Source: Sideroxyarcus sp. (GTDB taxonomy: Bacteria > Pseudomonadota > Gammaproteobacteria > Burkholderiales > Gallionellaceae). From it: a DNA stretch of 64,000 nt. The DNA is taken from contig DATGWO010000035.1 of assembly GCA_035299445.1 (NCBI GenBank), forward strand, positions 132,022 through 196,021. The letters run 5' to 3'. The notes under the pieces are model-generated. The model saw only the letters and a list, made by a program, of their open reading frames with translations. It made no database searches and had not been told where the DNA came from. The first letter of the stretch is position 1. Each line of letters opens with the position of its first letter. Positions 28,032 through 48,919 of this stretch are shown piece after piece. The translations under genes and the position numbers were made by a program.

Positions 28032-30407
28032 TTACGATCCGGCTTTTTCTTTTTCGGCCAGCCTGCGCCAAGTCTCCACCAGCGTGTCCGGATTCAGCGA
28101 CATGGTCTGGATGCCGATCTCCATCAGCCATTGGGCAAAGTCGAAATGGTCGGACGGGCCTTGCCCGCAGATGCCGACGTACTTGTCCAGCCGGTTGCAG
28201 GTGGTGATCGCCATCTTCAGCAAGGCCTTCACCGCCGCATCGCGCTCGTCGAAGCGGTCCGCCACCAGGCTGGAGTCGCGATCCAGACCGAGCGTCAGCT
28301 GGGTCAGGTCGTTGGAGCCGATGGAGAAACCGTCGAAATGCTGGAGGAACTCCTCGGCCAGCAAGGCGTTGGAAGGGATCTCGCACATCATGATCAGGCG
28401 CAGGCCGTGCTCGCCGCGCTTCAGGCCATGTTTCGCCAGCGTGGCAACCACGTCTTTCGCCTCTTGCACCGTGCGCACGAACGGGATCATCAGCTCGACG
28501 TTGGTGTAGCCCAGCTTCTCGCGCACGCGCTTCATCGCGCGGCATTCCAGCTCGAAACAATCCGAGAAGTTCGCCGCGACGTAACGCCCCGCGCCGCGGA
28601 AGCCGATCATCGGGTTCTCTTCCATCGGTTCGTAGATCTCGCCGCCCAGCAACTTGCGGTACTCGTTCGACTTGAAGTCGGACAGGCGCACGATGACCTT
28701 CTTCGGCCAGAACGCGGCGGCCAGCGTCGCCACGCCTTCGGTGATCTTCTCCACGTAGAACTCTTCCGGGCTGGCATAACCGGCGGCGCGCTTTGCCACC
28801 GCCTCGTGCAGCTTGCCCGGCAGCTTGTCGTATTCCAGCACCGCCTTCGGGTGGATGCCGATCAGGTTGTTGATGATGAATTCGAGCCGCGCCAGGCCGA
28901 TACCGGCCGACGGCAACTGCGCGAACTCGAACGCCAGCGTCGGGTTGCCGACGTTGAGCATGAGCTTCACCGGGATCGCCGGCAGCGCATCCTCGCTGTG
29001 GACCACCACCTCGAACGGCAGCTTGCCGTGATACACATAGCCGGTATCGCCCTCGGCGCAGGAAGCGGTGACGATCTCGCCGTCTTGCAGCGCAGTGGTA
29101 GCATGGCCGCAGCCGACGATCGCCGGGATGCCCAGTTCGCGCGCAATGATCGCCGCATGGCAGGTACGTCCGCCGCGATTGGTGATGATGGCGGAAGCCT
29201 TCTTCATCACCGGCTCCCAGTTCGGGTCGGTCATGTCGGTGACCAGCACGTCGCCGGCCTGCACCTTGTCCATCTCGGCGGTGCTGGCGACGATGCGCAC
29301 GCGGCCGACGCCGATCTTCTGGCCGATGGCGCGGCCTTCGGTCAGCACGGTGCCGCGCTGTTGCAAACGATACTTCTCGGTGCCGCCGTTGCCCGCATTC
29401 GACTTCACCGTCTCCGGGCGAGCCTGCAGGATGTAGAGCTTGCCGTCCACGCCGTCCTTGCCCCACTCGATGTCCATCGGCCGGCCGTAATGCTGCTCGA
29501 TGGATACCGCGTAGCGCGCCAGCTGCAACACGTCCGCGTCATTCAACGAGAACTTCGATTGATCGGCGACCGGCACCGGCTCGATGCGCGTGGAACGCCC
29601 GGCGGAGCGCTGCGCGTCGAACACCATGCGCTGCTGCTTGGAACCCAGCGCGCGGCGGATCACCGCAGGGAAACCGGCGGCGAGCTGCGGCTTGTGCACG
29701 TAGAACTCGTCCGGATTCACCGCGCCCTGCACCACCATCTCGCCCAGACCGTAGGACGAGGTGATGAACACCGCATCGCGGAAACCGGATTCGGTATCCA
29801 GCGTGAACATCACGCCGGATGCACCCAAGTCGGAGCGCACCATGCGCTGCACGCCGGCGGACAGCGCCACATCGGCGTGGGTGAAGTCCTTGTGCACGCG
29901 GTAGGAGATGGCGCGGTCGTTGTACAGCGAGGCGAACACTTCGCGGATCGCGTGCAGGATGTTGTCGATGCCGTGGATGTTGAGGAAGGTCTCCTGCTGT
30001 CCGGCGAACGAGGCGTCGGGAAGGTCTTCCGCAGTCGCAGAGGAGCGCACGGCGAAGCTGCCCTCGCCCGCCGCCGCGAGTTTGTCGTAGTGGCTGCGGA
30101 TCTCTTCTTCCAGACGCTTGGGCAGCGGCGCCTCGACGATCCAGCCGCGGATCTTGCGTCCCGCCTCGGCCAGCGCGGTGACATCGTCCACGTTCAGCGT
30201 GGACAGCGTCTGCTCGATGCGCTTGTCCAGCCCGTCGTTCGCCAGGAAGTCGCGATACGCCTGCGCCGTGGTGGCAAAGCCGCCGGGCACTTGCACGCCG
30301 GACGAGCTCAGGTTGGAAATCATCTCGCCGAGCGAAGCGTTCTTCCCGCCCACCTCGGGAATGTCGGCGATACCCAGAGACTGGAATGGAATGACGTAAG
30401 GTTGCAT
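28032..30407 (-). CDS. ppsA: Phosphoenolpyruvate synthase
   Basis: [35 protein letters not shown] (phospho-His), [15 protein letters not shown]. Confidence 0.98.
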
Positions 30408-30489
30408 GGCCTTCTCCTGATTATGTTGAACTACACTTCTTTTTGCCGGACATACCCGATCCGGCAAATCCCCTAAAACCGATAACGGT

Positions 30490-30675
30490 TCAATGCCGCT
30501 CGCGCTTGCACTGTGCCTCGCCGCAACGTTTGTTGCCGCAACCGCAGCCCTCGCCTTCCTCGCGCAACGCGCCGAACTCCGGATGCCGTGCCGCGAAATT
30601 CCTGGCTGCCGCACGCACCAGCAGCCAGCCGGCGAACAGCCCGAATACGATCAATACAGTCTTGAGGTAAATCAT
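30490..30675 (-). CDS. Small TM protein with a 4-Cys tail, last gene of the rnf operon (NqrM-like architecture)
   Basis: [61 protein letters not shown]; start overlaps the rnfA stop. Confidence 0.75.
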
Positions 30676-31262
30676 TCTCCTGCCCCCAATCCGGCAAAAC
30701 CCATGAAGGTCAGCGACAGCAGGCCAGCGAGGATCAGCGACAGCGCCGTGCCCTGCACCAGCGCCGGCACATTGGCCAGCTGCAACCGTTCGCGCAGCGA
30801 CGCCATCAGCACCAAGGCCAGCGTGAAACCGGCGCCGCCCGCGAACGAGAAGGTCAGCGATTGCGTGAAGTCGTATTCGCGCGCGGTCTGGAACAGCGCC
30901 ACGCCCAGTACCGCGCAGTTGGTGGTGATCAGCGGCAGGTAGATGCCCAGCGCACGGAACAGCGCCGGGCTGTATTTCTTCATCACCATCTCCACCAGCT
31001 GCACCGACGAGGCGATCACCACGATGTAGGAGATCAGCCGCAAGAACTCGAGATGCAGCACGCCCAGCAGCCAGTTCAACCCGTAGGCACACAGCGAGGC
31101 CACGACCATCACGAAGGTGGTCGCCACGCCCATCGGGAACGCCGTGCCCAGGCGTCCCGATACGCCGAGGAAAGGGCACAGGCCAAGGAACATGGCCAGC
31201 ACGAAGTTGTTGGTCAGCAGCGTGCCGATGAAGATCTGGCTCAGCGAATCAGTCATGTCCAT
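30672..31262 (-). CDS. rnfA: Rnf complex subunit A
   Basis: NNFVLAMFLGLCPFLG, LPLITTNCAVLG. Confidence 0.95.
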   Translation of the reverse strand: MDMTDSLSQIFIGTLLTNNFVLAMFLGLCPFLGVSGRLGTAFPMGVATTFVMVVASLCAYGLNWLLGVLHLEFLRLISYIVVIASSVQLVEMVMKKYSPALFRALGIYLPLITTNCAVLGVALFQTAREYDFTQSLTFSFAGGAGFTLALVLMASLRERLQLANVPALVQGTALSLILAGLLSLTFMGFAGLGAGE

Positions 31263-31890
31263 TGCCTCCTTCCATCGCTGCCTTCCTGCTGCGCAGCAGC
31301 GAGAACAGCAGCAGCCAGCCGCCCAGCACGAAGAAGCCGCCCGGCGGCAACACCATCACCACCCAGGGCTGGAACTGCTCGCCGAACAGCGCGACGCCGA
31401 ACAGCTTGCCCGCACCCAGGATCTCGCGCGTCGCACCCAGCGCCAACAGGCCGATGGTGAAGCCGATGCCCATGCCCAGCGCGTTGACCACAGCCTTCAG
31501 CGGCGGGTTCTTCGAGGCATGTGCCTCGGCGCGCCCGAGGATGATGCAGTTCACCACGATCAGCTGGATGAACGCACCCAATGCCTCGTACAGCTTCAGG
31601 CTCACCGCCTGGATCAGGTAATCGACCAGCGTCACGAAGGTCGCGATGATCACGATGTAGGTCGCGATGCGCACTTCCTTTGGCACCAGGTTGCGGATCA
31701 GCGACACCAGCAGGCAGGAACTGACCAGCACAAAGGAGGTGGCGAGGCCCATCGACAGCGCGTTCTCCGCGGAGACGGTGACCGCCAGCGTCGGGCACAT
31801 GCCCAGCACCATCACGAACACCGGGTTCTGCCGCCACACGCCTTCCATGAAGGTGTCGAAGGTGATCGCTTGATCGGCTTGTCGGCTCAT
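31249..31890 (-). CDS. rnfE: Rnf complex subunit E
   Basis: NPVFVMVLGMCPTLAV, LIVVNCIILGRAE, LPPGGF. Confidence 0.95.
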   Translation of the reverse strand: MSRQADQAITFDTFMEGVWRQNPVFVMVLGMCPTLAVTVSAENALSMGLATSFVLVSSCLLVSLIRNLVPKEVRIATYIVIIATFVTLVDYLIQAVSLKLYEALGAFIQLIVVNCIILGRAEAHASKNPPLKAVVNALGMGIGFTIGLLALGATREILGAGKLFGVALFGEQFQPWVVMVLPPGGFFVLGGWLLLFSLLRSRKAAMEGGNGHD

Positions 31891-32558
31891 GGCTGCAACT
31901 CCTTGATATGCGGGACCAGCAGCGGCATCAGCTTCTGCGCGCTGTCGTTGAGGCCGCGCCCGACCGCTTTCGATGTCACGGTGGCACCGGCGATGGCATC
32001 GATCTCCCAGGCGTTCTGCTTGCCGCCGTGCTTGACCACCTTCACCGCGTTCGCCAGCGCCTTCATCTCGGCATCGACGCGCACGTCGAGCGCCTCGAAG
32101 TTCTGCAGGAAGGCCTGGTCGGTGATGATCTTGTCGCCGATCCCCGGCGTCTCGCGCATGGATACTACGCCGATGCCGACGATGCACTGGCAGGCCGCGT
32201 CGTAGCCGTACAGCACGCGCACCACGTCGGCATAACCCTTGCCGGCGGCTTCGGCAGCGATGCCCTTCAGCGCGCCGGACTGGTCGTAGGCCGCATAGAA
32301 CTTCACGCCGCCTTCCGGCATCGCGCCCGTCAGCGGCTGGATGCCTGCCGGCGTCGCGGCGAACTCCTTCACGCTGGCCGCGCCCGGCAGCACCTTGAAC
32401 ACCGCGCGCTCCAGCGTGACACGCTTGTTCTCGGCGATGGCCTCCTGCGTGCCTTCGAAGGCACCGACGATGAGCACACCGCAGAAGCCGGCGACCAGCA
32501 CCATGGTGGCGATCATCCTGCCGCCCGGCGTGATCTGGTTTGGCAGCGGCTCGTTCAT
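31887..32558 (-). CDS. rnfG: Rnf complex subunit G (FMN-binding)
   Basis: TM anchor, ETPGIG, DAIAGATVTS flavinylation motif. Confidence 0.92.
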   Translation of the reverse strand: MNEPLPNQITPGGRMIATMVLVAGFCGVLIVGAFEGTQEAIAENKRVTLERAVFKVLPGAASVKEFAATPAGIQPLTGAMPEGGVKFYAAYDQSGALKGIAAEAAGKGYADVVRVLYGYDAACQCIVGIGVVSMRETPGIGDKIITDQAFLQNFEALDVRVDAEMKALANAVKVVKHGGKQNAWEIDAIAGATVTSKAVGRGLNDSAQKLMPLLVPHIKELQP

Positions 32559-33592
32559 TTGCCCCTCCGCTGGCGCGTGCCGAACACGCGCGGCTGGGTG
32601 TACTGGTCGATCAGCGGGGTCAGCGCATTGCCGAGCAGGATCGCGTACATCACGCCTTCGGTCAGCCCGCCGAAATAGCGGATCATCACCGTCACCACGC
32701 CGATCACCGCGCCGTAGATCCACACGCCCACCGGCGTCACCGGCGAGGTCGCCATGTCGGTCGCCATGAACAGCGCGCCCAGCATCAGGCCGCCGGAGAA
32801 CAGCACGAGGTGGATGGGCGGATAGGTCACCGGATCGTACAGGCGGAACAGCCAGGCGACCAGCAGCGCGCTGCCGAGCACCGCCACCGGGATGCGCCAG
32901 TCCATGAACTTGCGCACCGCAAGGTACAAGCCGCAGATCCCCAGCAGCAGGGCCGAGGTCTCCCCGGTCGAGGCGCTGACTGCGCCGGTCACCAGGTCCT
33001 GCAACGGATAGACGAAGTGCTCGAATTTCCAGCGCGCCAGCGGCGTCGCGCCGGTGAAGCCGTCGACCGATGCCGCCGCGACCCAGCCGCTATTGTCGTT
33101 CGGCAGCATGAACGGCAGCGTCAGCGTGGACGGGGCGAATTCGGTGAAGCGCTGCGGCGCATAGGCCGGCACCCAGATGGTGATAGCGGCGGGGAACGAA
33201 GCCTGCACGAAGGCGCGCCCCACCAGCGCCGGGTTGAACACGTTGTGGCCGAGGCCGCCGAACAGCGCCTTGCCGACGGCGATGGCGACGAAGCCCGCCA
33301 CCGCGCCCATCCACAGCGGGAAGGCGGGCGGCAGCGTCAGCGCGAGCAGCAGGCCGGTGATGACAGCGCTCCAGTCGCCCAGCGTGCTCGCCTGCCCCGC
33401 GGTGCGATTGAACAGCCGCTCGGTGGCAAGGCAGGCGGCGGTGACGGCAAGCAGCAACGCCAGCGCCGAGAGGCCGTATTGCCACACTGAGAAGGCGCAG
33501 ATCGGCAGCAGCGCCAACACCACGTGCAGCATGATGCGCTCCACGCTGCGGTCGCTGACCAGGTGCGGCGAGGTACGGAGTTCGATGCTCAT
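32555..33592 (-). CDS. rnfD: Rnf complex subunit D
   Basis: TSPH, FGGLGHNVFNPALVGR, DGFTGATPL, FMATD. Confidence 0.95.
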   Translation of the reverse strand: MSIELRTSPHLVSDRSVERIMLHVVLALLPICAFSVWQYGLSALALLLAVTAACLATERLFNRTAGQASTLGDWSAVITGLLLALTLPPAFPLWMGAVAGFVAIAVGKALFGGLGHNVFNPALVGRAFVQASFPAAITIWVPAYAPQRFTEFAPSTLTLPFMLPNDNSGWVAAASVDGFTGATPLARWKFEHFVYPLQDLVTGAVSASTGETSALLLGICGLYLAVRKFMDWRIPVAVLGSALLVAWLFRLYDPVTYPPIHLVLFSGGLMLGALFMATDMATSPVTPVGVWIYGAVIGVVTVMIRYFGGLTEGVMYAILLGNALTPLIDQYTQPRVFGTRQRRGK

Positions 33593-34923
33593 GCGGCGAC
33601 TTTCTCCCGATTGAACGCCTTTGCTACCCGGAACTGCTGCACCAAGGGGATATGCGACGGGCAGACGTAGCTGCAGCAGCCGCATTCGAAACAACGATCC
33701 AGATTGTAGCGCTCCGCCATCATTCCGTATTCGCGTTTCGCCGCCAGCAAGCCGAGCTGCGAAGGATTGAGGAACTTGGGGCAGACGTTCACGCATTCGC
33801 CGCACTTGATGCAGGCGTAGCTGCGTTGCGCTTCCGCGCTCGCTTCGGCGAAGGCGAGCACGCCCGAGGTGCCCTTGGTCACCGGCACATCCAGCGACGC
33901 GACGGTCATGCCCATCATCGGGCCGCCGAGGATGATCTCTTGTGCGCTGCTGCGCGCGCCGACCTGTTCCAGCACCCAGCGCAGCGGCGTGCCGATCGGC
34001 ACGATGTAGTTGCCGGGTCGTGCCACGGCCGGGCCGGCCACGGTCAGCACACGCTCGACCATGCCCTCGCCCGCCGGCAGCAGGCGGCCGAGATAGGCCA
34101 GCGTCATCACGTTGTTCATCAGCACGCCGATGGAGGCGGGACGTTGTCCGGCCGGTATCTCGCGGCCGAGCAGGGCATAGATGATGGTGTCTTCCGCACC
34201 TTGCGGATACTTGGTCTCCAGCGCCTGTACGGTGATCGCGCCGTCGGTCGGCAGTGCGGCGCGGATCGCCGCGATGGCGTCCGGCTTGTTGTCTTCCACG
34301 CCGATGATGGCATGCGGCGCGCCGCTCACCTTGAGCGCGATGCGGATGCCGCGCAGCAGGTCCTGCGTGCGTTCCACCATCACACGGTGGTCGCAGGTGA
34401 GGAAGGGTTCGCATTCGGCGCCGTTCACCACCAGCGTGTCTATCTTCACTTCTGGCGGTAGCGAGAGTTTCACATGCGCCGGGAAGGTGGCGCCGCCCAA
34501 ACCGGCGATGCCGGTCCGCTGTATCGCGGCCAGCAACTCCTGCTTGTCCATGGCTTCGATGTCGCACGGCTGCCCCGCCCGCACCTGCTGCCCGTCCGCC
34601 TCATACACGCGGATGGTGATGGAATCGACCATCTTGCCGTTGGCCGCCGGCATCGGGCCTATCGCTTCCACCACGCCGGTGGCCGGTGCATGCACCGGCA
34701 GCGACATCATGCCGTCGGCCGTGGCGATGAGCTGGCCGCGCAGCACCTCCTCGCCCACGCTCACGCAACACACGGCCGGTTTGCCGATGTGCTGCGACAG
34801 CGGCACGACCAGCCGTGGCGCGAACGCCATGCGCCTGATCGGCAGGCTGCCGGTCTCCTTGTGGTACACGGGATGGATGCCGTGCTCGAAGGTCGCCGCG
34901 CGATGGAAGAAAGGCAGTCGCAT
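33589..34923 (-). CDS. rnfC: Rnf complex subunit C (short form)
   Basis: GLGGATFP, NGAECEP, GGPMMG, CIKCGECVNVCP, CFECGCCSYVCP. Confidence 0.96.
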   Translation of the reverse strand: MRLPFFHRAATFEHGIHPVYHKETGSLPIRRMAFAPRLVVPLSQHIGKPAVCCVSVGEEVLRGQLIATADGMMSLPVHAPATGVVEAIGPMPAANGKMVDSITIRVYEADGQQVRAGQPCDIEAMDKQELLAAIQRTGIAGLGGATFPAHVKLSLPPEVKIDTLVVNGAECEPFLTCDHRVMVERTQDLLRGIRIALKVSGAPHAIIGVEDNKPDAIAAIRAALPTDGAITVQALETKYPQGAEDTIIYALLGREIPAGQRPASIGVLMNNVMTLAYLGRLLPAGEGMVERVLTVAGPAVARPGNYIVPIGTPLRWVLEQVGARSSAQEIILGGPMMGMTVASLDVPVTKGTSGVLAFAEASAEAQRSYACIKCGECVNVCPKFLNPSQLGLLAAKREYGMMAERYNLDRCFECGCCSYVCPSHIPLVQQFRVAKAFNREKVAA

Positions 34924-34930
34924 CTTCGTC

Positions 34931-37900
34931 TCAGTTGAACTTGGCCGCCCGTGCCTTCAGTTTTTCCAGGTTCGGCTCGCTCATGTTCCAGGGCGTACCG
35001 GGGTGGATGACGCCGGCGGTGCATTTTTCCGCCGCTTTAACGAGGTCCAGATAACTGCCCGCCTTCGGGTCGAGGACGATGACTTTTTTCGTTTCATTGT
35101 AGGCAAACACCTTGGGGTTGATATTGATGCATTCGTCGCAGGCGGTGCATTCCGGCGTGTCGATCCACACCGGATCGTAGCCGTCGGCATTCGCTGCGGC
35201 CTGGGTGACGACCGTCGCCGGTTGTGCCGTTGCATTGCCGCCGTCCGGCCCTGCGGAGAGTTGCTGGATCAGCTCCTGCCGCACACGGGCGGCGATGGCG
35301 CTCTCGTCCGCCGCTGCGACTGCACGCCCCACGCCGGCCACATCCTTGAGCTGCTTCCAGAACTGCAAGCGCTCTTCGCAGGAGTGCACCATCTCGGCCG
35401 ACACCAGCACGCGCATCAGGCGCTGCTTCTTGTCCACCGCCCAGATGAAGGGGAACTTGCCTTCGCGCCCGTCCGCGTCCAGCTTGAGGAAATCGGCCAG
35501 CAGCAGCATGTCGTCGTTCCATGTCTCCGGCGGCGCCTTCTTGAACTGCTTGGCAAAGCGGCCTTCGGACAGGGCGAAATCGGCGAAGGTCAGCGGCAGC
35601 GTCATGCTCTTCTTCTCGCCATCCTCCAGATATTCCAGCTTGTAGGCGATCCAGTCCGCCCCCAGCTCGGGATTGCCCTGCAGCGAGACGCTCTCGGAGA
35701 AAGTCACGCCGGCATCCGGATCGAACACGAACAACGGGAAGGCGCGCGACTCGGTCGCCATCTTGCTCTGCGCGACGGCGCTGTTGTCGCCGACGCCGTG
35801 CTCGGGCGGGCACACCGCGTACACGTTGAACAGGGCCGGGCGGCGGCTGTTGATGCCGTCGATGAAGCTCTCCAGCATGTGCGTGATGTTGCCCTGCGAC
35901 AGCTGCGCCACGTAGGAGGTGCGGTGCGCCATGCCGATTACGCTGATCTCCTTGCGCATCTCGGTCTTGCCGTGCTGGCTCGCGCCATAGGGCGACATGT
36001 CGGCCACCTGGCCGATGAAGCCGGAAGTGCAAGCCTGGCCGCCGGTGTTGGAGTACACCTGCGTGTCGACGATGAGGATCTTCACCGGCTTGCCGGACAT
36101 CAGCGCGCGCGACAGGTTCTGGAAACCGATGTCGAACATCGCGCCGTCGCCGCCGACCGCCACCACCGGCGGGCACAGCAACCATTCCTCGTCGTTGAAC
36201 TGCTCCCAGTTGAAGCGGGCGAAGAAACCATCCTGCTCGGCGGGATCGTAACCGCCCGCCAGTTCCTTCTCGGCCTGGCGCACGACCTTGAAGCCTTCCG
36301 CCATCTTGGCCATGTGGCCCTCGAACACGCCCATCGCGACGGACGGCGAATCCTGGAACAGGTGCGATGTCCACGGAAAGGGATAGGGGTTGAACGGGAA
36401 GGTCGAGGCCCATACCGAGGTGCAGCCGGTGGAATTGACGATGCCCATCTCGGCACGGCCGTTCTTGCTCGGACCTTCCATGTAACGCCAGCGCAAGTCC
36501 TTCAGCTTCTCCAGCATCTGGCTCACACGCTTCAGCCATTGAGGATCGATGGGCTGGCCGGAATGCCTGGCCAGCAGGCTCTCGGACAGATTGGCCAGGG
36601 TGAGGTCGCGGCCCTTGTGCTGCTGCACGGCCTCCATCAGCGCCGTGGTGTCGGTCAGGTCGACCGTGGAGCTGAGCTTCATGCGGACATGGTTCTCCAG
36701 GTCGGCGATCAGCTTGTCCAGCCTGGCGACGAACTTCTTCACGCGCGGCTGTTGCAGCGCAGTGACCGTGGCGGTGAACAGGTGGATGGATCCCTTCTCG
36801 CCGCAACCCAGGCAGGCGCCGTCGCCGCTGACCAGCGACATGTAGTTGTGCTTGTCCAGCAGCAGCGTTTCCAGCGCGCCGACTTTCTCGTCGAGATCGT
36901 CGATGCGACTGTATTGCGCCGGGGTGGTGGGCAGGTCGAGCCAGAAGTTCCAGTCGCGGCGCAGTTCGGCGATGGATTCCTTGGTCTGCGTGACCATCTT
37001 CAGCGCGTCGTCCTCGCACACATCCACGCACAGCGCGCAGCCCTTGCAGGTGTAGGGATTGATGGTGATGGAGAACAGGCCGCCAGTCCCCTTCTCTTTC
37101 TTTTCCTTCAGATTCCAGTACGGCTTGGTGGTGGCCAGCTTGAAGCCGCCGATCTCTGTGCGCAGCAGGTTCAGTTCGGCTTCCAGCTTGTTGCGCTCTT
37201 CGCCTTGGGCGGCGTCCTCGGCGAACGCCTCGGTGATGGCATTGGCCAGCAGTGCGCGCACGTCGAGACCGTCACGGTCCAGCGCGACGCGCAGTTTCTT
37301 CTCGATGGCACGGCTGAATTTGCGCAGGAAGCGGGTCGGGCGTCCGCCGATCTCGATGTTCTGGATGGCGGTGTTGAGCACATCGGCAGGTGTGGAGACC
37401 AGGCCGGGGATGGCGCTGTCCGGGCAGGTGGTGAAGCAGTTGCCGCAGGCGGTGCAGTTCTCCGCCTTCCATTCCGGATGCTCGAAACGCACGCCGGTCA
37501 TGTCGCGATACACGCCGGTCACGGCGGGGATCACCGACAATCCGATGAACGGGTCGACCAGGTTGCCGGAGCCTTCGCCCTGCATGTAGAAGCTGCCGGT
37601 CTGCTCCCAGAAACGGTGCACGTCGGAGACGCCGCCGTCGCCCTCCGGCAGACGTTTGAGCATGATCGGCAACGAGGCGGCCGTTTTTCCCGCCGCTTGC
37701 GCGCGCAGGCCTACCTTCATCAGTTCCGGCGCGATCTCGTGCATCTCGTCATAACCGCGGCGCACCACGCGCAGATTGTCCTCGACGATGCGCTTGCCCT
37801 TCTTGCCGAACTTGGATTCGAGCTGGTTCTCGATGGCGGTGAACAAGGTCTCTTCGGACAGGCCGGCGCGCTCCTTCACATCGGAGGCGCGGAAGAACGC

Positions 37901-39853
37901 GCCCTGGAAGGCGTTGCCCTGCATGCGCAGCTGCAGGTCGACATTGCTCGACTCCTCGCGCGCAATCTTGAACGCGTCGAGATAGAACACGCGCAGCTGC
38001 TTGTCCACGATGTACTTCTGGATGTGCCTGGGGAAGCTGGCCCACAGCGCTTCGGCGGAACCGAGGTTGCTCTGGATGATGAACACGCCGCCCTTGTTGA
38101 GGCCTTCCACCGCGTTGGTGTGACCGAACACTTGCGGGTCCGGCGACATCACCACGTCGACGTTGGTGTACTCGCAGTTGATGCGGATGGGTTCCGGCGC
38201 AGCCGACAGGTAGTAGGTGGTCGGCTGCCCCTTCTTCTCGGAACCGTATTTCGGATTGGCCTTGATGTCCCAGCCCAGCAGCTCGAACAGGGTCATCGCC
38301 AGGTTCTTGCCGGTAGTCACCATGCCCCAGCCGCCGATGGAATGCATGCGCACCGCGATGGCGCCCTTGGGCAGCAGGTTGGGGTTCTCGGAGCCGCGCA
38401 AAGCCAGCTCCTTGATGTTCGGGTAGGCAGCCTGCAATTCCTGCTGGCGGATCTCCTGTTTCGGATTGGCGGGGTCGCGCACGAAGTCCACCGACAAGTA
38501 GAAGAACTTGCGATGAGCGGCACCGGGCAACATGTTCTCGACCGCGGCGATCAGGCCTTCCGGTTGCAGATCGCGCGAACCCAGGCCGTAGCAGCCGGAG
38601 TACAGCGACGGCATCTCCTTCGCCGTTTCGTAGCAGGCGTAATCGGCGTAGGTCTTGTCGCGGCCGTTCTCCAGGCACTTGGTCACGGTGGCGCGCACTT
38701 CGCGCATCAGCGGCAGGTCTTCCGACAGCGGCTGGTCGGTGCGCTCCAGCACGGCCACGCCTTTCTTGCCCTTGAGCAATTGGCCCAGCACATCGCCAGG
38801 GAACGGGCGGAACATGGTGACGTTGACCACGCCCACCTTGAGCTGGCGGTTCTCGCGCAGCCAGTCGGCAACGGCTTCGGCCTGCACGACCATGCTGCCC
38901 TGGCCGAGGATGAGGTAGTCGGCGTCGTCGCAACGGTAAGCTCCCAGACGACCGTAGCGGCGGCCGGTCAGTTTGCAGAACTCTTCTGCGCTCTGGTCGA
39001 ACAGCGCGGGGATGTGGTCGAAGAAATAAGGACGTTGCGCGGCCACCGCCTGCATGTAGGCGTCCTGGTTCTGCACCACGCCGGTCTGCATGGGATTGTC
39101 CACATCCCAGGTGGACGGCACGCGGCGACGCTTGGGACCGTACAACATCTGCTGCGCGGGAGTCGGGGTATCGATCAGGTCGTCGGCGTCGCCGAGATAT
39201 TCGGCGATCAGCTCCTTCTCGGGCACCATCATCGGCTCGATCAGGTGGGTGGTGAGAAAGCCGTCCTGCGCGACGATGGCCGGGGTCAGCGACAGTTCGG
39301 CGGTCTTGCGCGCGATCATATTGAGGTCGGCGGCTTCCTGCGCATTCTTGGCGAACACCTGGATGAAGCCGGTGTCGTCGGCGCAGTGGTAGTCGTCGTG
39401 CGCACAATGCACGTTGAGCGAGGCCTTGGTGATGGCGCGGCAGCCGAGGTTCAGCACATAGGGCAGGCGCTTGCCGACGGCGGCGTATAGCGACTCATGC
39501 ATGAAGGCCATACCCTGCGCGGAGGTGAAATTGACCGCGCGCAGGCCGGTCATGGAAAGACCGGCGGTGACGCCGGCGGCGGCATGTTCCGATTCCGGCT
39601 CGACGAAGATCAACGGCTTGCCGGCGGCATTCAGATGTCCCTTGGCGACTTCCTCGGCCCAGTATTCGCCCATCTGCGTGGACGGCGTGATGGGGTAAGC
39701 GCCCGCACCTTGCGACGCTTCGCGCTCCACCATGATGACGGCGGTGTTGCCGTCGATGGCGTCGCGCGTACCGGGATACTTGACCTTGGTGCGCGCGCCT
39801 TCGGAACCGGTGGCGGCGTCGTTCGATTTGAACAGTTTGAATTTGTTGAACAT
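34931..39853 (-). CDS. por: Single-chain pyruvate:ferredoxin oxidoreductase (NifJ/Por family), 1640 aa, with inserts and a fused C-terminal ferredoxin
   Basis: DGNTA, YPITPS, GGWG, CTACGNC..CP, CKGCALC..C, GACLGCGE, NSTGC, GGDG, YSNTGGQ; C-terminal CTACDEC...C. Confidence 0.92.
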   Translation of the reverse strand: MFNKFKLFKSNDAATGSEGARTKVKYPGTRDAIDGNTAVIMVEREASQGAGAYPITPSTQMGEYWAEEVAKGHLNAAGKPLIFVEPESEHAAAGVTAGLSMTGLRAVNFTSAQGMAFMHESLYAAVGKRLPYVLNLGCRAITKASLNVHCAHDDYHCADDTGFIQVFAKNAQEAADLNMIARKTAELSLTPAIVAQDGFLTTHLIEPMMVPEKELIAEYLGDADDLIDTPTPAQQMLYGPKRRRVPSTWDVDNPMQTGVVQNQDAYMQAVAAQRPYFFDHIPALFDQSAEEFCKLTGRRYGRLGAYRCDDADYLILGQGSMVVQAEAVADWLRENRQLKVGVVNVTMFRPFPGDVLGQLLKGKKGVAVLERTDQPLSEDLPLMREVRATVTKCLENGRDKTYADYACYETAKEMPSLYSGCYGLGSRDLQPEGLIAAVENMLPGAAHRKFFYLSVDFVRDPANPKQEIRQQELQAAYPNIKELALRGSENPNLLPKGAIAVRMHSIGGWGMVTTGKNLAMTLFELLGWDIKANPKYGSEKKGQPTTYYLSAAPEPIRINCEYTNVDVVMSPDPQVFGHTNAVEGLNKGGVFIIQSNLGSAEALWASFPRHIQKYIVDKQLRVFYLDAFKIAREESSNVDLQLRMQGNAFQGAFFRASDVKERAGLSEETLFTAIENQLESKFGKKGKRIVEDNLRVVRRGYDEMHEIAPELMKVGLRAQAAGKTAASLPIMLKRLPEGDGGVSDVHRFWEQTGSFYMQGEGSGNLVDPFIGLSVIPAVTGVYRDMTGVRFEHPEWKAENCTACGNCFTTCPDSAIPGLVSTPADVLNTAIQNIEIGGRPTRFLRKFSRAIEKKLRVALDRDGLDVRALLANAITEAFAEDAAQGEERNKLEAELNLLRTEIGGFKLATTKPYWNLKEKKEKGTGGLFSITINPYTCKGCALCVDVCEDDALKMVTQTKESIAELRRDWNFWLDLPTTPAQYSRIDDLDEKVGALETLLLDKHNYMSLVSGDGACLGCGEKGSIHLFTATVTALQQPRVKKFVARLDKLIADLENHVRMKLSSTVDLTDTTALMEAVQQHKGRDLTLANLSESLLARHSGQPIDPQWLKRVSQMLEKLKDLRWRYMEGPSKNGRAEMGIVNSTGCTSVWASTFPFNPYPFPWTSHLFQDSPSVAMGVFEGHMAKMAEGFKVVRQAEKELAGGYDPAEQDGFFARFNWEQFNDEEWLLCPPVVAVGGDGAMFDIGFQNLSRALMSGKPVKILIVDTQVYSNTGGQACTSGFIGQVADMSPYGASQHGKTEMRKEISVIGMAHRTSYVAQLSQGNITHMLESFIDGINSRRPALFNVYAVCPPEHGVGDNSAVAQSKMATESRAFPLFVFDPDAGVTFSESVSLQGNPELGADWIAYKLEYLEDGEKKSMTLPLTFADFALSEGRFAKQFKKAPPETWNDDMLLLADFLKLDADGREGKFPFIWAVDKKQRLMRVLVSAEMVHSCEERLQFWKQLKDVAGVGRAVAAADESAIAARVRQELIQQLSAGPDGGNATAQPATVVTQAAANADGYDPVWIDTPECTACDECININPKVFAYNETKKVIVLDPKAGSYLDLVKAAEKCTAGVIHPGTPWNMSEPNLEKLKARAAKFN

Positions 39854-39862
39854 GATTTTCCC

Positions 39863-40744
39863 CTATGCTTCTGCGGTGACAGGTAACGGTTCGATGCGGA
39901 TGATCTTCTTGGCGGCCTTGCCTTTGCCGATGTGGCCGCCTTCCAGCCAGACGATGGCGCCGGTGGGGCAGCGCTCGATGGCGGCTTTGCTGGCGGATTG
40001 GTTCCTGGCATAGTCGATCACGGCGAGGTTGCGCTGCAGGCTTATCAGGCCGTCGGCCGCATCGGCCACGCAGCGCCCGCAGGCAGTGCAGGCCACTTCG
40101 CAGGCGGCTTCGGCGGTATCGGGATCGGATTCGTTGCGGCAGGCCATCCACAGTTTGTGCGACACGCCCTGGATGGAGAACAGGCCCTTGGGGCAGATAT
40201 CGACGCAATCGCCGCAGGCAGTGCACTTGTCCACATCGACCACGGGCAGGCCGTGCTGATCCATGGCAATGGCGTCGAAATCGCACACGTCGGCGCAATC
40301 GCCCAGACCCAGACAGCCCCAGGCGCAGCTCTTGCCGCCGCCACCGGCCACCGCCGCCGCACGGCAGGAGGACAGGCCGGAATACCGGGCGCGCATCCTG
40401 GCGACATGCTTGCCGCCGGCGCAGGCCAGCCGCGCCACGCGCTTCTCGATGTCGCCCAGGGCGACGCCGAGCAATGCGGCGATGGTCTTGTTCTGGTCGG
40501 GGGTGTTTACTGTGCAGCGGCCAGGCTCAATCTGGCCGGCGACCGCCTGTTCGGCGAAATTATGGCAACCGGCCGTGCCGCAGGCACCGCAATTGGAATG
40601 GGGGAGCAATTCTTCGACTTTTTCGATGCGCGGGTCTTCGAACACATACAGACGCTTGCTGGCGATGGCCAAGAAGAACGCCAGCAAGCCGCCCAAGACG
40701 GCCATGAACGCTCCGGTGACAAATACGCTGTATGCGATACCCAT
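39863..40744 (-). CDS. rnfB: Rnf complex subunit B (long polyferredoxin form)
   Basis: TM anchor, LPHSNCGACGTAGC, CAWGCLGLGDCADVC, CTACGDCVDICP, CEVACTACGRC, RCPTGAI. Confidence 0.93.
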   Translation of the reverse strand: MGIAYSVFVTGAFMAVLGGLLAFFLAIASKRLYVFEDPRIEKVEELLPHSNCGACGTAGCHNFAEQAVAGQIEPGRCTVNTPDQNKTIAALLGVALGDIEKRVARLACAGGKHVARMRARYSGLSSCRAAAVAGGGGKSCAWGCLGLGDCADVCDFDAIAMDQHGLPVVDVDKCTACGDCVDICPKGLFSIQGVSHKLWMACRNESDPDTAEAACEVACTACGRCVADAADGLISLQRNLAVIDYARNQSASKAAIERCPTGAIVWLEGGHIGKGKAAKKIIRIEPLPVTAEA

Positions 40745-40909
40745 GTCTCTCCCCTGCTGCAATAAATTCGCGCAGAGAACCACTTAGTCCGGCTCTCTAT
40801 TCGCTACACTTATTTGCGCCCCACTAAGCGCCAGGTGAATCACAACACCCTTGGATCACTACTGTTTTTCTTGTTGAACGCAGACTAAACCAAGCTACAA
40901 TCATTCTGC

Positions 40910-40954
40910 GAATCAATTGTTTCAATTTTGATTATTAAGAAATCAATTATTAAG
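40910..40954. promoter_or_regulatory. AT-rich inverted/direct repeats between divergent rnfB and lysR (candidate LysR operator)
   Basis: TTGAT-N9-ATCAA at 40928-40946; ATTATTAAG at 40931 and 40946. Confidence 0.45.
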
Positions 40955-40977
40955 TTTTGCCGCAGGGGGAGACCGGG

Positions 40978-41916
40978 ATGGCGGAAGACAAACAAAGCTA
41001 TTACAAGAACAATCGCATCAAACAGATGCGGGCATTTTGCGAAGTGGTGCGCACCGGCAGCGTCACTCTGGCGGCACAACACCTGTTTCTGAGCCAGCCT
41101 TCGGTGACCCTGCAGATCCAGGCGCTGGAGCGCGAGTTGGGCGTGACGGTATTCGAGCGGCGCGGCCCGGTGCTCAAGCTGACGCCGGACGGCGAGACGT
41201 TGTATGCCTTATCCGAGCCGCTGGTGAAAGGCGTGGACAGCCTGGAGGAGAATTTCGCCGCCCAGCACGGCAAGCTCGATTCGGGTGAATTGAACATCGG
41301 TGCGGGCGAATCCACCATCCTGTACATCCTGCCGGAGGCGGTGCGCCGCTTCGTCAGCGCGCACCCGCGCATCCAGCTGAAGATCCACAACGAGACCGGC
41401 CGCGACGGCCTGAAGATGTTGCGTGCCGATGAGATCGACCTGGTGGTCGGTTCCATGCTGGACGTGCCCGACGACATCACCTACCAGCCGGTGGTGACCT
41501 TCGACCCGGCGCTCATCGTGCCCTTGGGCCACCCGCTGGCGAACCGCACCGAGGTCACGCTGGAAGACATCAGCCACTACGGCCTGATCCTGCCGCCGCG
41601 CCACCTGTCGACCTGGCGCATGGTGAAATACGTGTTCCAGCAGCACAACCTGAACTTCACCGTGACGCTGGAGGCGGGCGGCTGGGAGGTGATCAAGAAA
41701 TATGTCGAGCTGGGCATGGGCATCTCCATCGTCACCGACATCTGCCTCACCGGCAACGAGAAGCTGGTGCGCATCCCGCTCAAGCAGTATTTCCCGCAAC
41801 GCGGCTACGGCCTGGTGCTGCGCAAAGGCCGTTTCCTGTCGCCGCAAGCCCGACGCTTCGTCGAAATACTGTACGAGGTATACGGCCTCAAGTCGGAACT
41901 CAACGCTCGGGATTGA
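40978..41916 (+). CDS. LysR-family regulator (CysB/CbbR-like substrate domain)
   Basis: [30 protein letters not shown] helix-turn-helix. Confidence 0.93.
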
Positions 41917-42715
41917 GTTCCTGCATCAACTGCACCGACAGCTCCTCGATCGATTTCGCCGTGGTGTCGAACCATTTGATACCTTCGCTACGCATCATCT
42001 TTTCGGCAGCGGCGACCTCATAGCGGCAGTTCTCCAGCGACGAATATTTGCTGTTCGGGCGGCGCTCGTTGCGAATGCGGTGCAACTGTTCCGGCGCGAT
42101 GGTGAGTCCGAACAGCTTGCTGCGGTAAGGCAGCAAACGCGAGGGCAGTACGCCGCGCTCGAAATCCTCGGGGATGAGCGGATAGTTGGCCGCCTTCAGC
42201 GAGAATTGCAAGGACAGGTACAGGCTGGTCGGTGTCTTGCCGCTGCGCGACACGCCGACCAGGATGATGTCGGCATTCTTGAGGTCGGCGTCCGACACGC
42301 CGTCGTCGTGCGCCAGCGCAAAGTTCATCGCCGCGATGCGCGAGTTGTATTCCGGGTTGGCATGGCCGTGCGAACGGCCAACGGCGCGGGTATAGCGCGC
42401 ACCGAGCTCCTGCTCGAGCGGTACGATGAAGGCATCGAACAGGTCGATGAAGAAGGCTTCCGCCTGATGCAGTATCTCGCTGAATTCCGAATTGGTCTGC
42501 GTCATGATGACGATGGGGCGCTCGGTTTCGCGCCGGCTCAATTCGTTGATGCGCGCCAGGCAGTCGCGGACTTTCTCCTCGCTGTCGACGAACGGGAACC
42601 GCAACGGCTTGAACTCGATGCCCTCGAACTGGGCCAGCAAACCATGCCCCAGCGTTTCGGCGGTGATACCCGTGCCATCCGACACATAGATCACTGTACG
42701 TTTTTGAGTGGCCAT
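41900..42715 (-). CDS. ppsR: PEP synthase regulatory kinase/phosphorylase (PpsR, DUF299)
   Basis: [32 protein letters not shown]. Confidence 0.95.
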
Positions 42716-44932: not shown

Positions 44933-45195
44933 CAGTCGTCTCCCTCATGTACGCCATATTCGCGATCAAGCTTGCCCATCGCCCTGGCGTAGTACCAGAT
45001 GATGAGGACATAGATGATCAAGGAACCCTGCGCCCCCATGTAGAACGGGAACGGAAAGCCAAGGATGGTGATGGACTGCAAATCTCTTGCGAACCAACCG
45101 ATGACAAAAGTGACGATAAACCAGATCGCCAGCAATATCCCGGTCAGGCGAAGATTCTTTTGCCAGTACTGTTTATGCTTCTCAGTAAGCTGCAT
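44932..45195 (-). CDS. DUF4212 small symporter-associated membrane protein
   Basis: YWQKNL, GFPFPFYMGAQG; TGATG overlap with the symporter. Confidence 0.88.
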   Translation of the reverse strand: MQLTEKHKQYWQKNLRLTGILLAIWFIVTFVIGWFARDLQSITILGFPFPFYMGAQGSLIIYVLIIWYYARAMGKLDREYGVHEGDD

Positions 45196-48813: not shown

Positions 48814-48919
48814 GGTCTCCACCCTTTCTAAATGTTCTGCGGCCCAATCTTAACAAACCGTCCGCGCAGTCTCGCAAGAATCGGGCCACATCCAGCCCAC
48901 AGACTTCGTGCCCGCCATG

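What the first reader, a model, noticed from the sequence alone, without database searches (positions are those of the whole stretch)
28032..42715. PFOR inserted in an Rnf operon and flanked by ppsA/ppsR: candidate ion-gradient-driven acetate assimilation module
Seen: rnfB-por-rnfC-D-G-E-A-small ORF run on one strand with gaps of 9 nt or less, or overlaps. ppsA follows 82 nt later. A LysR is divergent, ppsR lies just beyond it, and two ActP-type symporters are within 10 kb. Established: Rnf can run in reverse, using an ion gradient to reduce ferredoxin from NADH; PFOR can carboxylate acetyl-CoA to pyruvate; PpsA makes PEP and is controlled by PpsR. Inference: the block encodes acetate -> acetyl-CoA + CO2 -> pyruvate -> PEP without a glyoxylate shunt, in what looks like a microaerophilic betaproteobacterium. 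The alternative is forward pyruvate oxidation conserving energy under anoxia. acs is not in the window.
Basis: partly seen in the sequence, partly recalled or inferred. Interest (0 to 1): 0.85.

Follow-up and report, generated by a model that had tools for sequence, protein, structure and literature searches.

The report
Pyruvate enzyme inside Rnf pump operon
An iron-oxidising bacterium packs a membrane ion pump (Rnf), an oversized pyruvate:ferredoxin enzyme carrying its own tethered ferredoxin, and PEP synthase into one gene run. The layout is real and is shared by many CO2-fixing iron and sulfur oxidisers. Nobody has yet tested whether it builds pyruvate from acetyl-CoA plus CO2 or burns pyruvate.

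Summary
The minus strand carries rnfB, a 1640-aa PFOR-like gene, rnfC-D-G-E-A and a 61-aa Cys-rich membrane ORF, separated by gaps of at most 9 nt or by overlaps. ppsA follows 82 nt later, and the first strong terminator comes only after ppsA. A divergent LysR, ppsR and two monocarboxylate-type symporters flank the run.

The host is a Gallionellaceae Fe-oxidising, RuBisCO-bearing autotroph. The rnfB-POR-rnfCDGEA core is kept in 78 of 80 related loci across beta- and gammaproteobacterial lithoautotrophs. It was noted in passing in 2014 (Solemya symbiont) and has not been characterised.

The acetate-assimilation reading is partly supported:
- In favour, the genome has acs and only this one ppsA, and lacks isocitrate lyase, any PTA domain and nif.
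- In favour, ppsA sits in the same position in distant lineages.
- Against, 34 of 54 genomes with the module do have isocitrate lyase.
- Against, in Sideroxydans lithotrophicus ES-1 the POR, Rnf and PpsA proteins are abundant during purely autotrophic growth without acetate, alongside pyruvate dehydrogenase.

Direction is therefore open. I slightly favour a reversible, ion-gradient-coupled unit that PpsA pulls towards PEP (0.45) over energy-conserving pyruvate oxidation (0.35).

The parts
39863..40744 (-). rnfB, 293 aa, long anaerobe-type Fe-S subunit
   Evidence: NCBIfam PRK07118-type RnfB scores 188-214 bits, below the equivalog cut-offs. Pfam FeS plus Fer4 domains are present. The closest solved chains are A. 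woodii RnfB 9ERI (1e-50) and C. tetanomorphum 7ZC6; A. vinelandii 8AHX reaches only 5e-10.
34931..39853 (-). 1640-aa PFOR-like 2-oxoacid:ferredoxin oxidoreductase with two helical inserts and a C-terminal tethered single-cluster ferredoxin
   Evidence: Pfam POR_N, PFOR_II, POR, Fer4 and TPP_enzyme_C are matched, plus Fer4_13 at residues 1564-1617. TIGR02176 scores 411 bits against a cut-off of 911. The best PDB hit is Moorella PFOR 6CIN at 4e-90. Sixteen invariant Cys form four cluster motifs, and T56/R139/L146/V148 are invariant in 78 sequences (T56 in 77 of 78, one gap) within a conserved DTQVYSNTGGQ TPP motif. An AF2 model of residues 780-1640 has pLDDT 75.8; its C-terminal domain superposes on D. 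africanus ferredoxin I 1FXR with TM 0.85.
33589..34923 (-). rnfC (NADH/FMN subunit)
   Evidence: TIGR01945 scores 492 bits against a cut-off of 246.
32555..33592 (-). rnfD
   Evidence: TIGR01946 scores 299 bits against a cut-off of 207. The TGATPL flavinylation motif is visible in the translation.
31887..32558 (-). rnfG
   Evidence: TIGR01947 scores 82 bits, below the cut-off of 102. An AGATVTS FMN-attachment-type motif is present. The gene keeps the conserved position in all loci.
31249..31890 (-). rnfE
   Evidence: TIGR01948 scores 227 bits against a cut-off of 213.
30672..31262 (-). rnfA
   Evidence: TIGR01943 scores 239 bits against a cut-off of 229.
30490..30675 (-). 61-aa membrane protein with one TM helix, an RHPEFG motif and a four-Cys tail; its start overlaps the rnfA stop
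   Evidence: A Cys-containing ORF follows rnfA in 57 of 59 loci, about 45 of them clearly this family by their RHPE(F/L)GP motif. It matches no Pfam or NCBIfam family and gives no NqrM hit.
28032..30407 (-). ppsA, PEP synthase, the only copy in the genome
   Evidence: NF005057 scores 1232 bits against a cut-off of 598. tblastn finds no second copy in the genome. ppsA starts 213-423 nt after the rnfA end in 17 loci of two classes.
27893..27914 (-). intrinsic terminator after ppsA
   Evidence: A 9-bp stem with 6 G-C pairs followed by a T-run. It is the only strong terminator-like site downstream of rnfB on this strand.
40957..41916 (+). divergent LysR-family regulator
   Evidence: Pfam HTH_1 plus LysR_substrate are matched. 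The nearest NCBIfam model is the CysB family at 163 bits, below the cut-off of 402. The gene is conserved upstream in Gallionellaceae, Thiobacillaceae-type, Sedimenticola and Acidithiobacillales loci. The start may be the ATG at 40978.
41900..42715 (-). ppsR, PEP synthase regulatory kinase/phosphorylase
   Evidence: Pfam Kinase-PPPase scores 262 bits.
42845..45384 (-). VC_2705-family Na+/solute symporter large subunit (42845-44932) and small subunit (44932-45384)
   Evidence: TIGR03648 scores 766 bits (cut-off 321) and TIGR03647 scores 104 bits. A CTTAC-N6-CTTAC site lies at 45405.
48976..51381 (-). ActP/MctC-like monocarboxylate symporter (48976-51060) with DUF485 partner (51061-51381)
   Evidence: MctC scores 587 bits (cut-off 670) and ActP subfamily model NF006903 scores 518 bits (cut-off 750); the ActP equivalog TIGR02711 reaches 414 bits (cut-off 1099). 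DUF485 scores 94 bits. A CTTAC-N6-CTTAC site lies at 51466.

Best explanation
The operon encodes one functional unit. A PFOR-type pyruvate:ferredoxin oxidoreductase carries a tethered [4Fe-4S] ferredoxin that passes electrons to or from RnfB of an anaerobe-type Rnf complex.

The net reaction is pyruvate + CoA + NAD+ (ions pumped out) <-> acetyl-CoA + CO2 + NADH (ions flowing in). The free energy of the PDH reaction is roughly cancelled by moving about two ions against the membrane potential. The unit should therefore sit near equilibrium and be reversible.

In this Gallionellaceae genome I infer that its distinctive job is the uphill direction:
- NADH plus the ion gradient reduces the tethered ferredoxin.
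- POR carboxylates acetyl-CoA to pyruvate.
- The PpsA encoded directly downstream pulls pyruvate on to PEP.

POR-Rnf and PpsA would thus be the anabolic counterparts of PDH and pyruvate kinase. The acetyl-CoA would come from acetate (symporters plus Acs) or from internal C2 units.

Shown: gene content, tight operon structure, conservation, an intact catalytic and cluster inventory, the genomic context, and protein expression in a relative. Inferred: physical or electronic coupling of POR to Rnf, pyruvate as the substrate, and above all the direction.
For: Operon structure:
- Junctions from rnfB to the small ORF are gaps of at most 9 nt or overlaps, and the only strong terminator follows ppsA.
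- The core order is kept in 78 of 80 loci and in two loci with 58%-identity PORs.

Enzyme features:
- The fused ferredoxin and all four cluster motifs are invariant in 78 sequences, and the ferredoxin fold is confirmed.
- The residues that bind pyruvate in D. africanus PFOR (Thr31/Arg114/Asn996 equivalents) and the small hydrophobic pocket are conserved.

ppsA linkage:
- ppsA follows the small ORF in 17 loci from Gallionellaceae and from four gammaproteobacterial lineages, and ppsR comes next in five of them.
- This is the only ppsA in the genome.

Own-genome context:
- PDH E1 and pyruvate kinase are present, so the downhill route already exists.
- There is no isocitrate lyase in the genus.
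- acs is present.
- There is no PTA_PTB domain, so acetyl-CoA cannot yield ATP through acetyl-phosphate.
- nifH is absent, while the nif-linked Rnf of relatives is a separate cluster.

Cross-genome and literature support:
- ppsA adjacency is commoner in module genomes that lack isocitrate lyase: 9 of 12 against 7 of 31, Fisher p=0.0035, not corrected for phylogeny.
- Fe plus acetate stimulated growth of Sideroxydans CL21 (PMC9925335).
- Seah et al. 2019 (PMC6593406) argued for the same PFOR-as-pyruvate-synthase logic in Kentron.
Against: - In S. lithotrophicus ES-1 the orthologous POR (Slit_2486) and PpsA (Slit_2479) have log2 LFQ of about 27 in Fe(II)-citrate and magnetite cultures without acetate. 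That is about as high as PDH E1 at 27.5-28.4. Expression is therefore constitutive in autotrophy, where net flux runs from C3 to C2.
- 34 of 54 module genomes have a true isocitrate lyase.
- At lineage level the ppsA/ICL association is not significant.
- F. straubiae does not grow on acetate, and one of its rnf operons is higher under autotrophy.
- A Gallionella MAG is reported to have PFOR but no PDH (PMC13664910).
- The Rnf is of the type that usually oxidises ferredoxin in anaerobes.
- The symporters seem to be separately regulated.
- Reducing ferredoxin is costly for an Fe(II) oxidiser.
Confidence: 0.45

Rival explanations
1. Energy-conserving pyruvate oxidation. POR replaces or supplements PDH at low O2 or in anoxia. 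It converts CBB- or glycogen-derived pyruvate to acetyl-CoA, and Rnf turns the reduced ferredoxin into NADH plus an ion gradient. Under this reading ppsA is adjacent for regulating the PEP/pyruvate node, or for growth on pyruvate and lactate.
For: - The reaction is thermodynamically downhill.
- RuBisCO is present in 50 of 55 module genomes, and such cells must make all their acetyl-CoA from C3.
- POR, Rnf and PpsA are abundant in autotrophic ES-1 without acetate.
- RnfB is closest to the A. woodii and C. tetanomorphum enzymes.
- A Gallionella MAG has PFOR but no PDH.
- A plant-type FNR follows the operon in 18 Rhodocyclaceae-type loci, and a peroxiredoxin is inserted in four Sedimenticola loci.
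- iPGM is inserted in L058.
- This is the published reading in Dmytrenko 2014 (PMC4287430) and Chan 2023 (PMC10734482).
- CL21 grows on pyruvate and lactate (PMC12442390).
Against: - PDH E1 is present and abundant in the same cells, so the route is redundant.
- PpsA in the same transcription unit opposes pyruvate kinase.
- Without a PTA domain there is no ATP gain from acetyl-CoA by acetate fermentation.
- A tethered ferredoxin is not needed for the downhill direction (inference).
Confidence: 0.35
2. Ferredoxin supply for other low-potential consumers. Either POR (NifJ-like) or reverse Rnf feeds a general ferredoxin pool that serves nitrogenase, Fd-GOGAT, the second OFOR or hydrogenase.
For: - Rnf is classically linked to nif.
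- The Rhodoferax antarcticus authors suggested that the Rnf-adjacent PFOR could stand in for NifJ (PMC5374385).
- A second OFOR lies next to a Hox hydrogenase in this genome.
Against: - nifH is absent here and in three other complete same-genus genomes that keep the module.
- Relatives that fix N2 have a separate nif-linked Rnf.
- The ferredoxin is covalently tethered to POR in all 78 sequences, which argues for a private carrier rather than a pool.
Confidence: 0.07
3. The enzyme acts on another 2-oxoacid such as 2-oxobutyrate, glyoxylate or oxalate, or on another acyl-CoA, so the pyruvate/PEP story is wrong.
For: - The score is far below the PFOR equivalog cut-off: 411 against 911 bits.
- There are two large family-specific inserts.
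- prpE/prpB-like genes elsewhere suggest propionate handling.
Against: - The best sequence and fold matches are true PFORs, not OGOR, OOR or VOR.
- The pyruvate-contacting residues are invariant.
- ppsA is linked in two classes.
Confidence: 0.08

Closest known systems
rnf2 operon (rnfB-PFOR-rnfCDGEA) of the Solemya velum gill symbiont (Dmytrenko et al. 2014, PMC4287430)
   Same: It has the same gene order, with PFOR between rnfB and rnfC, in a CBB sulfur-oxidising proteobacterium.
   Different: It is described in one sentence only, read as pyruvate donating electrons to Rnf, and was not tested. The paper does not mention the fused ferredoxin, the small Cys-rich ORF or ppsA. Here the host is a freshwater Fe-oxidising Gallionellaceae with ppsA, ppsR and symporters around the operon.
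Rnf complexes of Acetobacterium woodii (PDB 9ERI) and Clostridium tetanomorphum (7ZC6)
   Same: All six subunits are present in B-C-D-G-E-A order. RnfB here is most similar to theirs (1e-50 and 2e-44). These are reversible ferredoxin:NAD+ ion pumps.
   Different: Those operons contain no PFOR and use free ferredoxin. The hosts are strict anaerobes. No small Cys-rich ORF is known there.
Homodimeric PFOR (Moorella thermoacetica 6CIN, Desulfovibrio africanus 1B0P; NifJ/YdbK type, TIGR02176)
   Same: The domain order, TPP motif, three internal [4Fe-4S] motifs and pyruvate-contacting residues match. The Moorella enzyme also works as a pyruvate synthase.
   Different: This protein is about 470 aa longer. 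It has a four-helix insert inside the ferredoxin domain, a helical insert of about 110 aa between ligands of the proximal cluster, and a linker plus a fourth cluster domain at the C-terminus. It scores less than half the family cut-off.
Pyruvate synthase plus PEP synthase route of rTCA and purple/green sulfur bacteria (Buchanan, Evans and Arnon, 1960s; from my own knowledge, not checked here)
   Different: There the ferredoxin is reduced by light, by H2 or by low-potential donors. Here a membrane Rnf driven by the ion gradient would do it, in a CBB organism.
Kentron symbiont model (Seah et al. 2019, PMC6593406)
   Same: PFOR is proposed as a heterotrophic carboxylase that turns acetyl-CoA from PHA or acetate into pyruvate in a microaerophilic thiotroph without a complete glyoxylate shunt. 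Rnf is present.
   Different: No operon link between PFOR and Rnf was reported. Kentron lacks RuBisCO.

Membership tests
Rnf complex (RnfABCDGE ion-translocating ferredoxin:NAD+ oxidoreductase) | All six subunits are encoded together. | tested here: met
   RnfC, D, E and A are above their NCBIfam cut-offs. RnfG (82 against 102 bits) and RnfB (below the equivalog cut-offs) are recognisable and sit in the conserved positions.
Rnf complex (RnfABCDGE ion-translocating ferredoxin:NAD+ oxidoreductase) | Covalent-FMN attachment motifs are present in RnfD and RnfG. | tested here: met
   TGATPL is seen in RnfD and AGATVTS in RnfG in the translations. This was read by eye against motifs known from Rnf and Nqr.
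Rnf complex (RnfABCDGE ion-translocating ferredoxin:NAD+ oxidoreductase) | Ferredoxin:NAD+ activity is coupled to Na+ or H+ transport. | not testable with these tools
   This needs biochemistry.
PFOR, single-chain NifJ/YdbK type (TIGR02176) | The score reaches the equivalog cut-off. | tested here: not met
   410.9 bits against a cut-off of 911.35, in three stretches.
PFOR, single-chain NifJ/YdbK type (TIGR02176) | Domain order, TPP-binding GDG...N motif and three [4Fe-4S] ligand sets are present. | tested here: met
   Pfam domains are in order. The motifs GGDGAM and DTQVYSNTGGQ are present. Cys 800/803/806/810, 936/939/942/946 and 1014/1017/1144/1348 are invariant.
PFOR, single-chain NifJ/YdbK type (TIGR02176) | Pyruvate-contacting residues are present (D. 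africanus Thr31, Arg114, Asn996, Leu121/Ile123). | tested here: met
   T56, R139, L146 and V148 are invariant in 78 sequences, T56 apart from one gapped row. N1269 sits in the conserved DTQVYSNTGGQ motif, three of whose other residues were counted as invariant. The mapping to D. africanus numbering is from my knowledge of 1B0P.
PFOR, single-chain NifJ/YdbK type (TIGR02176) | Pyruvate/acetyl-CoA activity. | not testable with these tools
   No enzyme of this long subfamily has been assayed, as far as the searched literature shows.
PEP synthase (PpsA) with PpsR | The score is above the equivalog cut-off and the regulatory partner is present. | tested here: met
   NF005057 scores 1232 bits (cut-off 598) and TIGR01418 scores 1151 bits. 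PpsR matches Pfam PF03618 at 262 bits.
ActP cation/acetate symporter (TIGR02711) | The score is above the equivalog cut-off. | tested here: not met
   The 48976-51060 protein scores 414 bits against a cut-off of 1099, and 587 against 670 for MctC. The 42845-44932 protein belongs to the VC_2705 family instead, at 766 against 321 bits. The substrate is inferred, not shown.
Acetate assimilation by pyruvate synthase in place of the glyoxylate shunt | Isocitrate lyase is absent from the genome. | tested here: met
   Only a 54-bit partial hit to the PEP-mutase superfamily is found in the own genome and the same genus, against 200+175 bits for true ICLs in other families.
Acetate assimilation by pyruvate synthase in place of the glyoxylate shunt | The module and isocitrate lyase are mutually exclusive across genomes. 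| tested here: not met
   34 of 54 module genomes have a true ICL.
Acetate assimilation by pyruvate synthase in place of the glyoxylate shunt | Malate synthase and ethylmalonyl-CoA pathway (ccr) genes are absent. | not tested
Acetate assimilation by pyruvate synthase in place of the glyoxylate shunt | The module is induced by acetate and CO2 label enters C1 of pyruvate. | not testable with these tools
   The only expression data found are ES-1 proteomes without acetate, in which the module is already abundant.

The most novel reading that the evidence does not exclude
The long POR is a physical subunit of an Rnf supercomplex. It docks by its family-specific helical inserts and uses its tethered ferredoxin as a swinging arm to RnfB. 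This would create a membrane-bound, ion-motive pyruvate:NAD+ oxidoreductase.

Driven by the ion gradient, the complex would carboxylate acetyl-CoA in micro-oxic CBB lithoautotrophs. That would give them a second CO2-fixing step and a shunt-free C2-to-C3 route: PDH and pyruvate kinase run backwards by dedicated enzymes. It would also explain why Rnf marks Fe-oxidising Gallionellaceae.
Probability: 0.3. Interest if true: 0.85.

Novelty: new variant of a known kind. Interest (0 to 1): 0.6.

Why it matters
- Hoover et al. 2023 (PMC10734462) listed Rnf among the genes that separate Fe-oxidising Gallionellaceae from Nitrotoga and called its function unknown. This operon offers a concrete, testable answer.
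- If the unit runs uphill, so-called obligate lithoautotrophs have a cheap way to turn acetate plus CO2 into all cell carbon. That needs 2 electrons per pyruvate instead of 10. It would change how carbon budgets at Fe/S redox interfaces and in chemosynthetic symbioses are read.
- If it runs downhill, it is an energy-saving replacement for pyruvate dehydrogenase.
- Either way, a ferredoxin-tethered PFOR wired to an ion pump is an uncharacterised enzyme system. It is abundant at protein level in a culturable organism (ES-1).
- It could also interest engineers working on CO2 or acetate assimilation.

Tried and rejected
- Nitrogenase support was rejected. nifH is absent here, and a separate nif-linked Rnf exists in relatives.
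- PpsA acting glycolytically for want of pyruvate kinase was rejected, because pyk is present in the cbb cluster.
- Acetate fermentation from POR-derived acetyl-CoA is unlikely here, because there is no PTA_PTB domain. An xfp-ackA pair does exist.
- The small ORF as NqrM or as a FeoB-associated protein: there are no significant Pfam hits. FeoB_associated reaches E=0.12 in 2 of 15 sequences and NqrM gives none.
- The CTTAC-N6-CTTAC motif as a link between the symporters and the rnf operon: three exact sites lie at the porin, SSF and ActP promoters, and none upstream of rnfB.
- Transcript evidence could not be obtained:
  - The look-up of encoding contigs had no record.
  - The F. straubiae expression table is truncated before the POR-linked operon.
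  - The held supplements of the ES-1 transcriptome paper and the CL21 paper had no relevant rows.
- The PFOR diversity review of November 2026 does not cover this Rnf-embedded subfamily.

Full report
**1. The observation**

ORF listing and start-codon placement give the following genes on the minus strand:
- rnfB 39863-40744
- a 1640-aa POR 34931-39853
- rnfC 33589-34923
- rnfD 32555-33592
- rnfG 31887-32558
- rnfE 31249-31890
- rnfA 30672-31262
- a 61-aa ORF 30490-30675
- ppsA 28032-30407

The junctions, in operon order, are gaps of 9 and 7 nt, overlaps of 4, 4, 4, 14 and 4 nt, and then an 82-nt gap before ppsA. NCBIfam and Pfam confirm the names. The only strong terminator-like site on this strand lies after ppsA, at 27914-27893. 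The 82-nt spacer holds a hairpin that lacks a U-tract.

The flanks are as follows:
- LysR (40957-41916, +) is divergent from rnfB.
- ppsR (41900-42715, -) converges on LysR.
- Beyond lie a VC_2705-type symporter with its small subunit (42845-45384), a TctD/E-like two-component pair and an NhaD antiporter.
- An ActP/MctC-like symporter with DUF485 occupies 48976-51381.

**2. The organism and its metabolism**

The closest POR homologues (84-90% identity) come from Sideroxydans, Sideroxyarcus, Gallionella and Ferrigenium. The window is part of a 2.69-Mb genome that is 99.96% complete.

That genome has:
- RuBisCO next to pyruvate kinase
- PDH E1
- a bona fide acs plus a prpE-like paralogue
- a second, Rsx-like rnfABCDGE cluster 30 kb upstream of the window
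- a second OFOR beside a Hox hydrogenase
- a phosphoketolase and acetate-kinase-like pair

It lacks isocitrate lyase, nifH and any PTA_PTB domain. The ppsA in the window is its only ppsA.

**3. The enzyme**

The POR is PFOR-like but not canonical. It scores 411 bits against the TIGR02176 cut-off of 911. Its best solved relatives are the Moorella and Desulfovibrio PFORs.

An alignment of 78 family members shows 16 invariant cysteines. They form the two ferredoxin-domain clusters, the proximal cluster (1014/1017/1144/1348) and a fourth CxxCxxC...C set at 1569-1611. The TPP motif and the residues that contact pyruvate in D. africanus PFOR are conserved.

An AlphaFold model of residues 780-1640 (pLDDT 75.8) shows:
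- a four-helix insert inside the ferredoxin domain
- a long helical insert between ligands of the proximal cluster
- a disordered linker
- a C-terminal domain that superposes on D. africanus ferredoxin I (TM 0.85, rmsd 0.7 Å)

RnfB resembles the A. woodii and C. tetanomorphum subunits far more than the A. vinelandii one. The 61-aa ORF (one TM helix, an RHPEFGP motif, a Cys-rich tail) recurs after rnfA in most of the 59 loci that keep rnfA, and it matches no family.

**4. Conservation**

More than 583 loci in the species-representative genome collection encode the long POR. Among the 80 best, 78 keep rnfB-POR-rnfCDGEA. Of the other two, one (L073, a Dechloromonas MAG) has flanks but no rnf genes, and L074 is too short to tell. 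Two genomes with PORs at 58% identity also keep the order.

Carriers include Gallionellaceae, Thiobacillaceae and Hydrogenophilales-type MAGs, Rhodocyclaceae (Sulfuritalea, Sulfurisoma), Rhodoferax, Thiothrix, Sedimenticola, Ca. Thiodiazotropha, Thiocapsa and Acidithiobacillales. Within the order the module is rare: 14 of 301 genomes and 7 of 144 genera. RuBisCO is present in 50 of 55 carriers.

Accessory genes differ by lineage:
- ppsA lies directly after the small ORF in Gallionellaceae and in four gammaproteobacterial lineages, with ppsR next in five loci.
- A plant-type FNR follows the operon in 18 Rhodocyclaceae-type loci.
- A peroxiredoxin is inserted in four Sedimenticola loci.
- A sensor kinase, a response regulator and iPGM are inserted in L058.

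**5. Prior knowledge**

- Dmytrenko et al. 2014 noted PFOR between rnfB2 and rnfC2 in the Solemya velum symbiont and suggested that pyruvate is an electron donor.
- Hoover et al. 2023 called the role of Rnf in Fe-oxidising Gallionellaceae unknown and did not mention the POR.
- Other Gallionellaceae papers read PFOR as fermentative or as a low-O2 substitute for PDH.
- A review of PFOR diversity from November 2026 does not treat this subfamily.
- Other agents of this scan reached the same description in other genomes. I treat that as agreement, not as evidence.

**6. Direction**

*For the assimilatory reading*
- ppsA lies in the transcription unit, in two classes of bacteria.
- PDH and pyruvate kinase already provide the downhill route.
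- The host lineage has acs and carboxylate symporters but no isocitrate lyase and no Pta.
- The ferredoxin is private to the enzyme, which makes sense if a very reduced carrier must be insulated in a microaerophile (inference).
- ppsA adjacency is commoner where ICL is absent (9 of 12 against 7 of 31, p=0.0035). The effect disappears when lineages are counted once.
- Fe plus acetate stimulated growth of Sideroxydans CL21.

*Against the assimilatory reading*
- ICL is present in 34 of 54 carriers.
- The symporters carry their own CTTAC-N6-CTTAC motif, which is absent at rnfB.
- F. straubiae does not grow on acetate.
- The published ES-1 proteome is the most telling. ES-1 has the same synteny: Slit_2477/78 porins, Slit_2479 PpsA, rnf genes, Slit_2486 POR, Slit_2488 LysR, Slit_2489 PpsR, Slit_2490 symporter.
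  - POR and PpsA sit at log2 LFQ 27.0-27.5 in Fe(II)-citrate cultures and 25.9-27.0 on magnetite.
  - RnfC is at 25.0-25.9 on Fe(II)-citrate (23.7-25.2 on magnetite) and PDH E1 at 27.5-28.4 on Fe(II)-citrate.
  - The module is therefore expressed strongly and coordinately without acetate.

*Energetics (my estimate)*
The free energy of the PDH reaction, about -35 kJ/mol, roughly equals the cost of moving two ions against about 180 mV. A POR-Rnf couple should therefore be near equilibrium, with its direction set by mass action and by PpsA pulling pyruvate away.

**7. Verdict**

I commit to a reversible POR-Rnf unit whose unique contribution in this genome is acetyl-CoA + CO2 -> pyruvate -> PEP (0.45). 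Energy-conserving pyruvate oxidation is a close rival (0.35). Supply of a ferredoxin pool (0.07) or a different substrate (0.08) are minor alternatives.

The thing is a new, uncharacterised variant of known parts, already noticed in the literature and repeatedly in this scan. It is attractive because a culturable relative expresses it abundantly and simple labelling would settle the question.

Noticed in passing
window 25286-25301, 45405-45420, 51466-51481: Exact CTTAC-N6-CTTAC direct repeats lie upstream of a porin gene, the VC_2705 symporter operon and the DUF485-ActP operon. That is 3 matches against 0.62 expected, and 3 of 100 shuffles reach 3. The motif is probably the site of the adjacent TctD-like response regulator (45428-46105). 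It is not present upstream of rnfB.
   Followed up: partly
window 30490-30675 and loci L001-L080: A 57-75-aa protein with one TM helix, an RHPE(F/L)GP motif and a Cys-rich tail follows rnfA in most of the 59 loci that keep rnfA. It matches no Pfam or NCBIfam family. It may be an Rnf assembly or Fe-S delivery factor, analogous in idea to NqrM.
   Followed up: partly
own genome C38:229993-239633 (outside the window): A second 2-oxoacid:ferredoxin oxidoreductase sits directly beside NAD-reducing Hox-type hydrogenase genes. It comprises an alpha subunit of 418 aa, a beta subunit, and a 541-aa subunit with a ferredoxin-like motif at its N-terminus (a GltD-like NAD(P)-binding part is my guess from that N-terminus and the length; no family search was run on it).
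   Followed up: no
own genome C11:13959-17470 (outside the window): A phosphoketolase (816 aa) is translationally coupled to a short acetate-kinase-like gene (234 bits, below the ackA cut-off), and the genome has no PTA domain. This is a possible route from sugar phosphates to acetate plus ATP that could feed an acetate cycle.
   Followed up: partly
own genome C14:121418-126660 (outside the window): A prpE-like acyl-CoA synthetase (654 bits to the acs model) lies near a member of the PEP-mutase/isocitrate-lyase superfamily that resembles methylisocitrate lyase. This suggests propionate handling in an organism regarded as an autotroph.
   Followed up: no
L058:14905-20307; L060:15047-15634; L033:19772-20629: Lineage-specific genes occur inside or at the end of the operon. 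A CHASE histidine kinase, a response regulator and iPGM lie between POR and rnfC in L058. A peroxiredoxin lies in the same place in four Sedimenticola loci. A plant-type ferredoxin-NADP reductase follows the small ORF in 18 Rhodocyclaceae-type loci.
   Followed up: partly
window 24041-26592: Two tandem porin genes lie downstream of ppsA, separated from it by a TPR gene on the opposite strand. In S. lithotrophicus ES-1 one orthologous porin (Slit_2477) is among the most abundant proteins. The other (Slit_2478) rises about 7.5 log2 units on magnetite (PMC12016527 Table S4).
   Followed up: no
window 47551-48822: An NhaD-type Na+/H+ antiporter sits between the two Na+-type solute symporter operons. 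This hints at a local Na+ cycle and bears on the unknown ion specificity of this Rnf.
   Followed up: no
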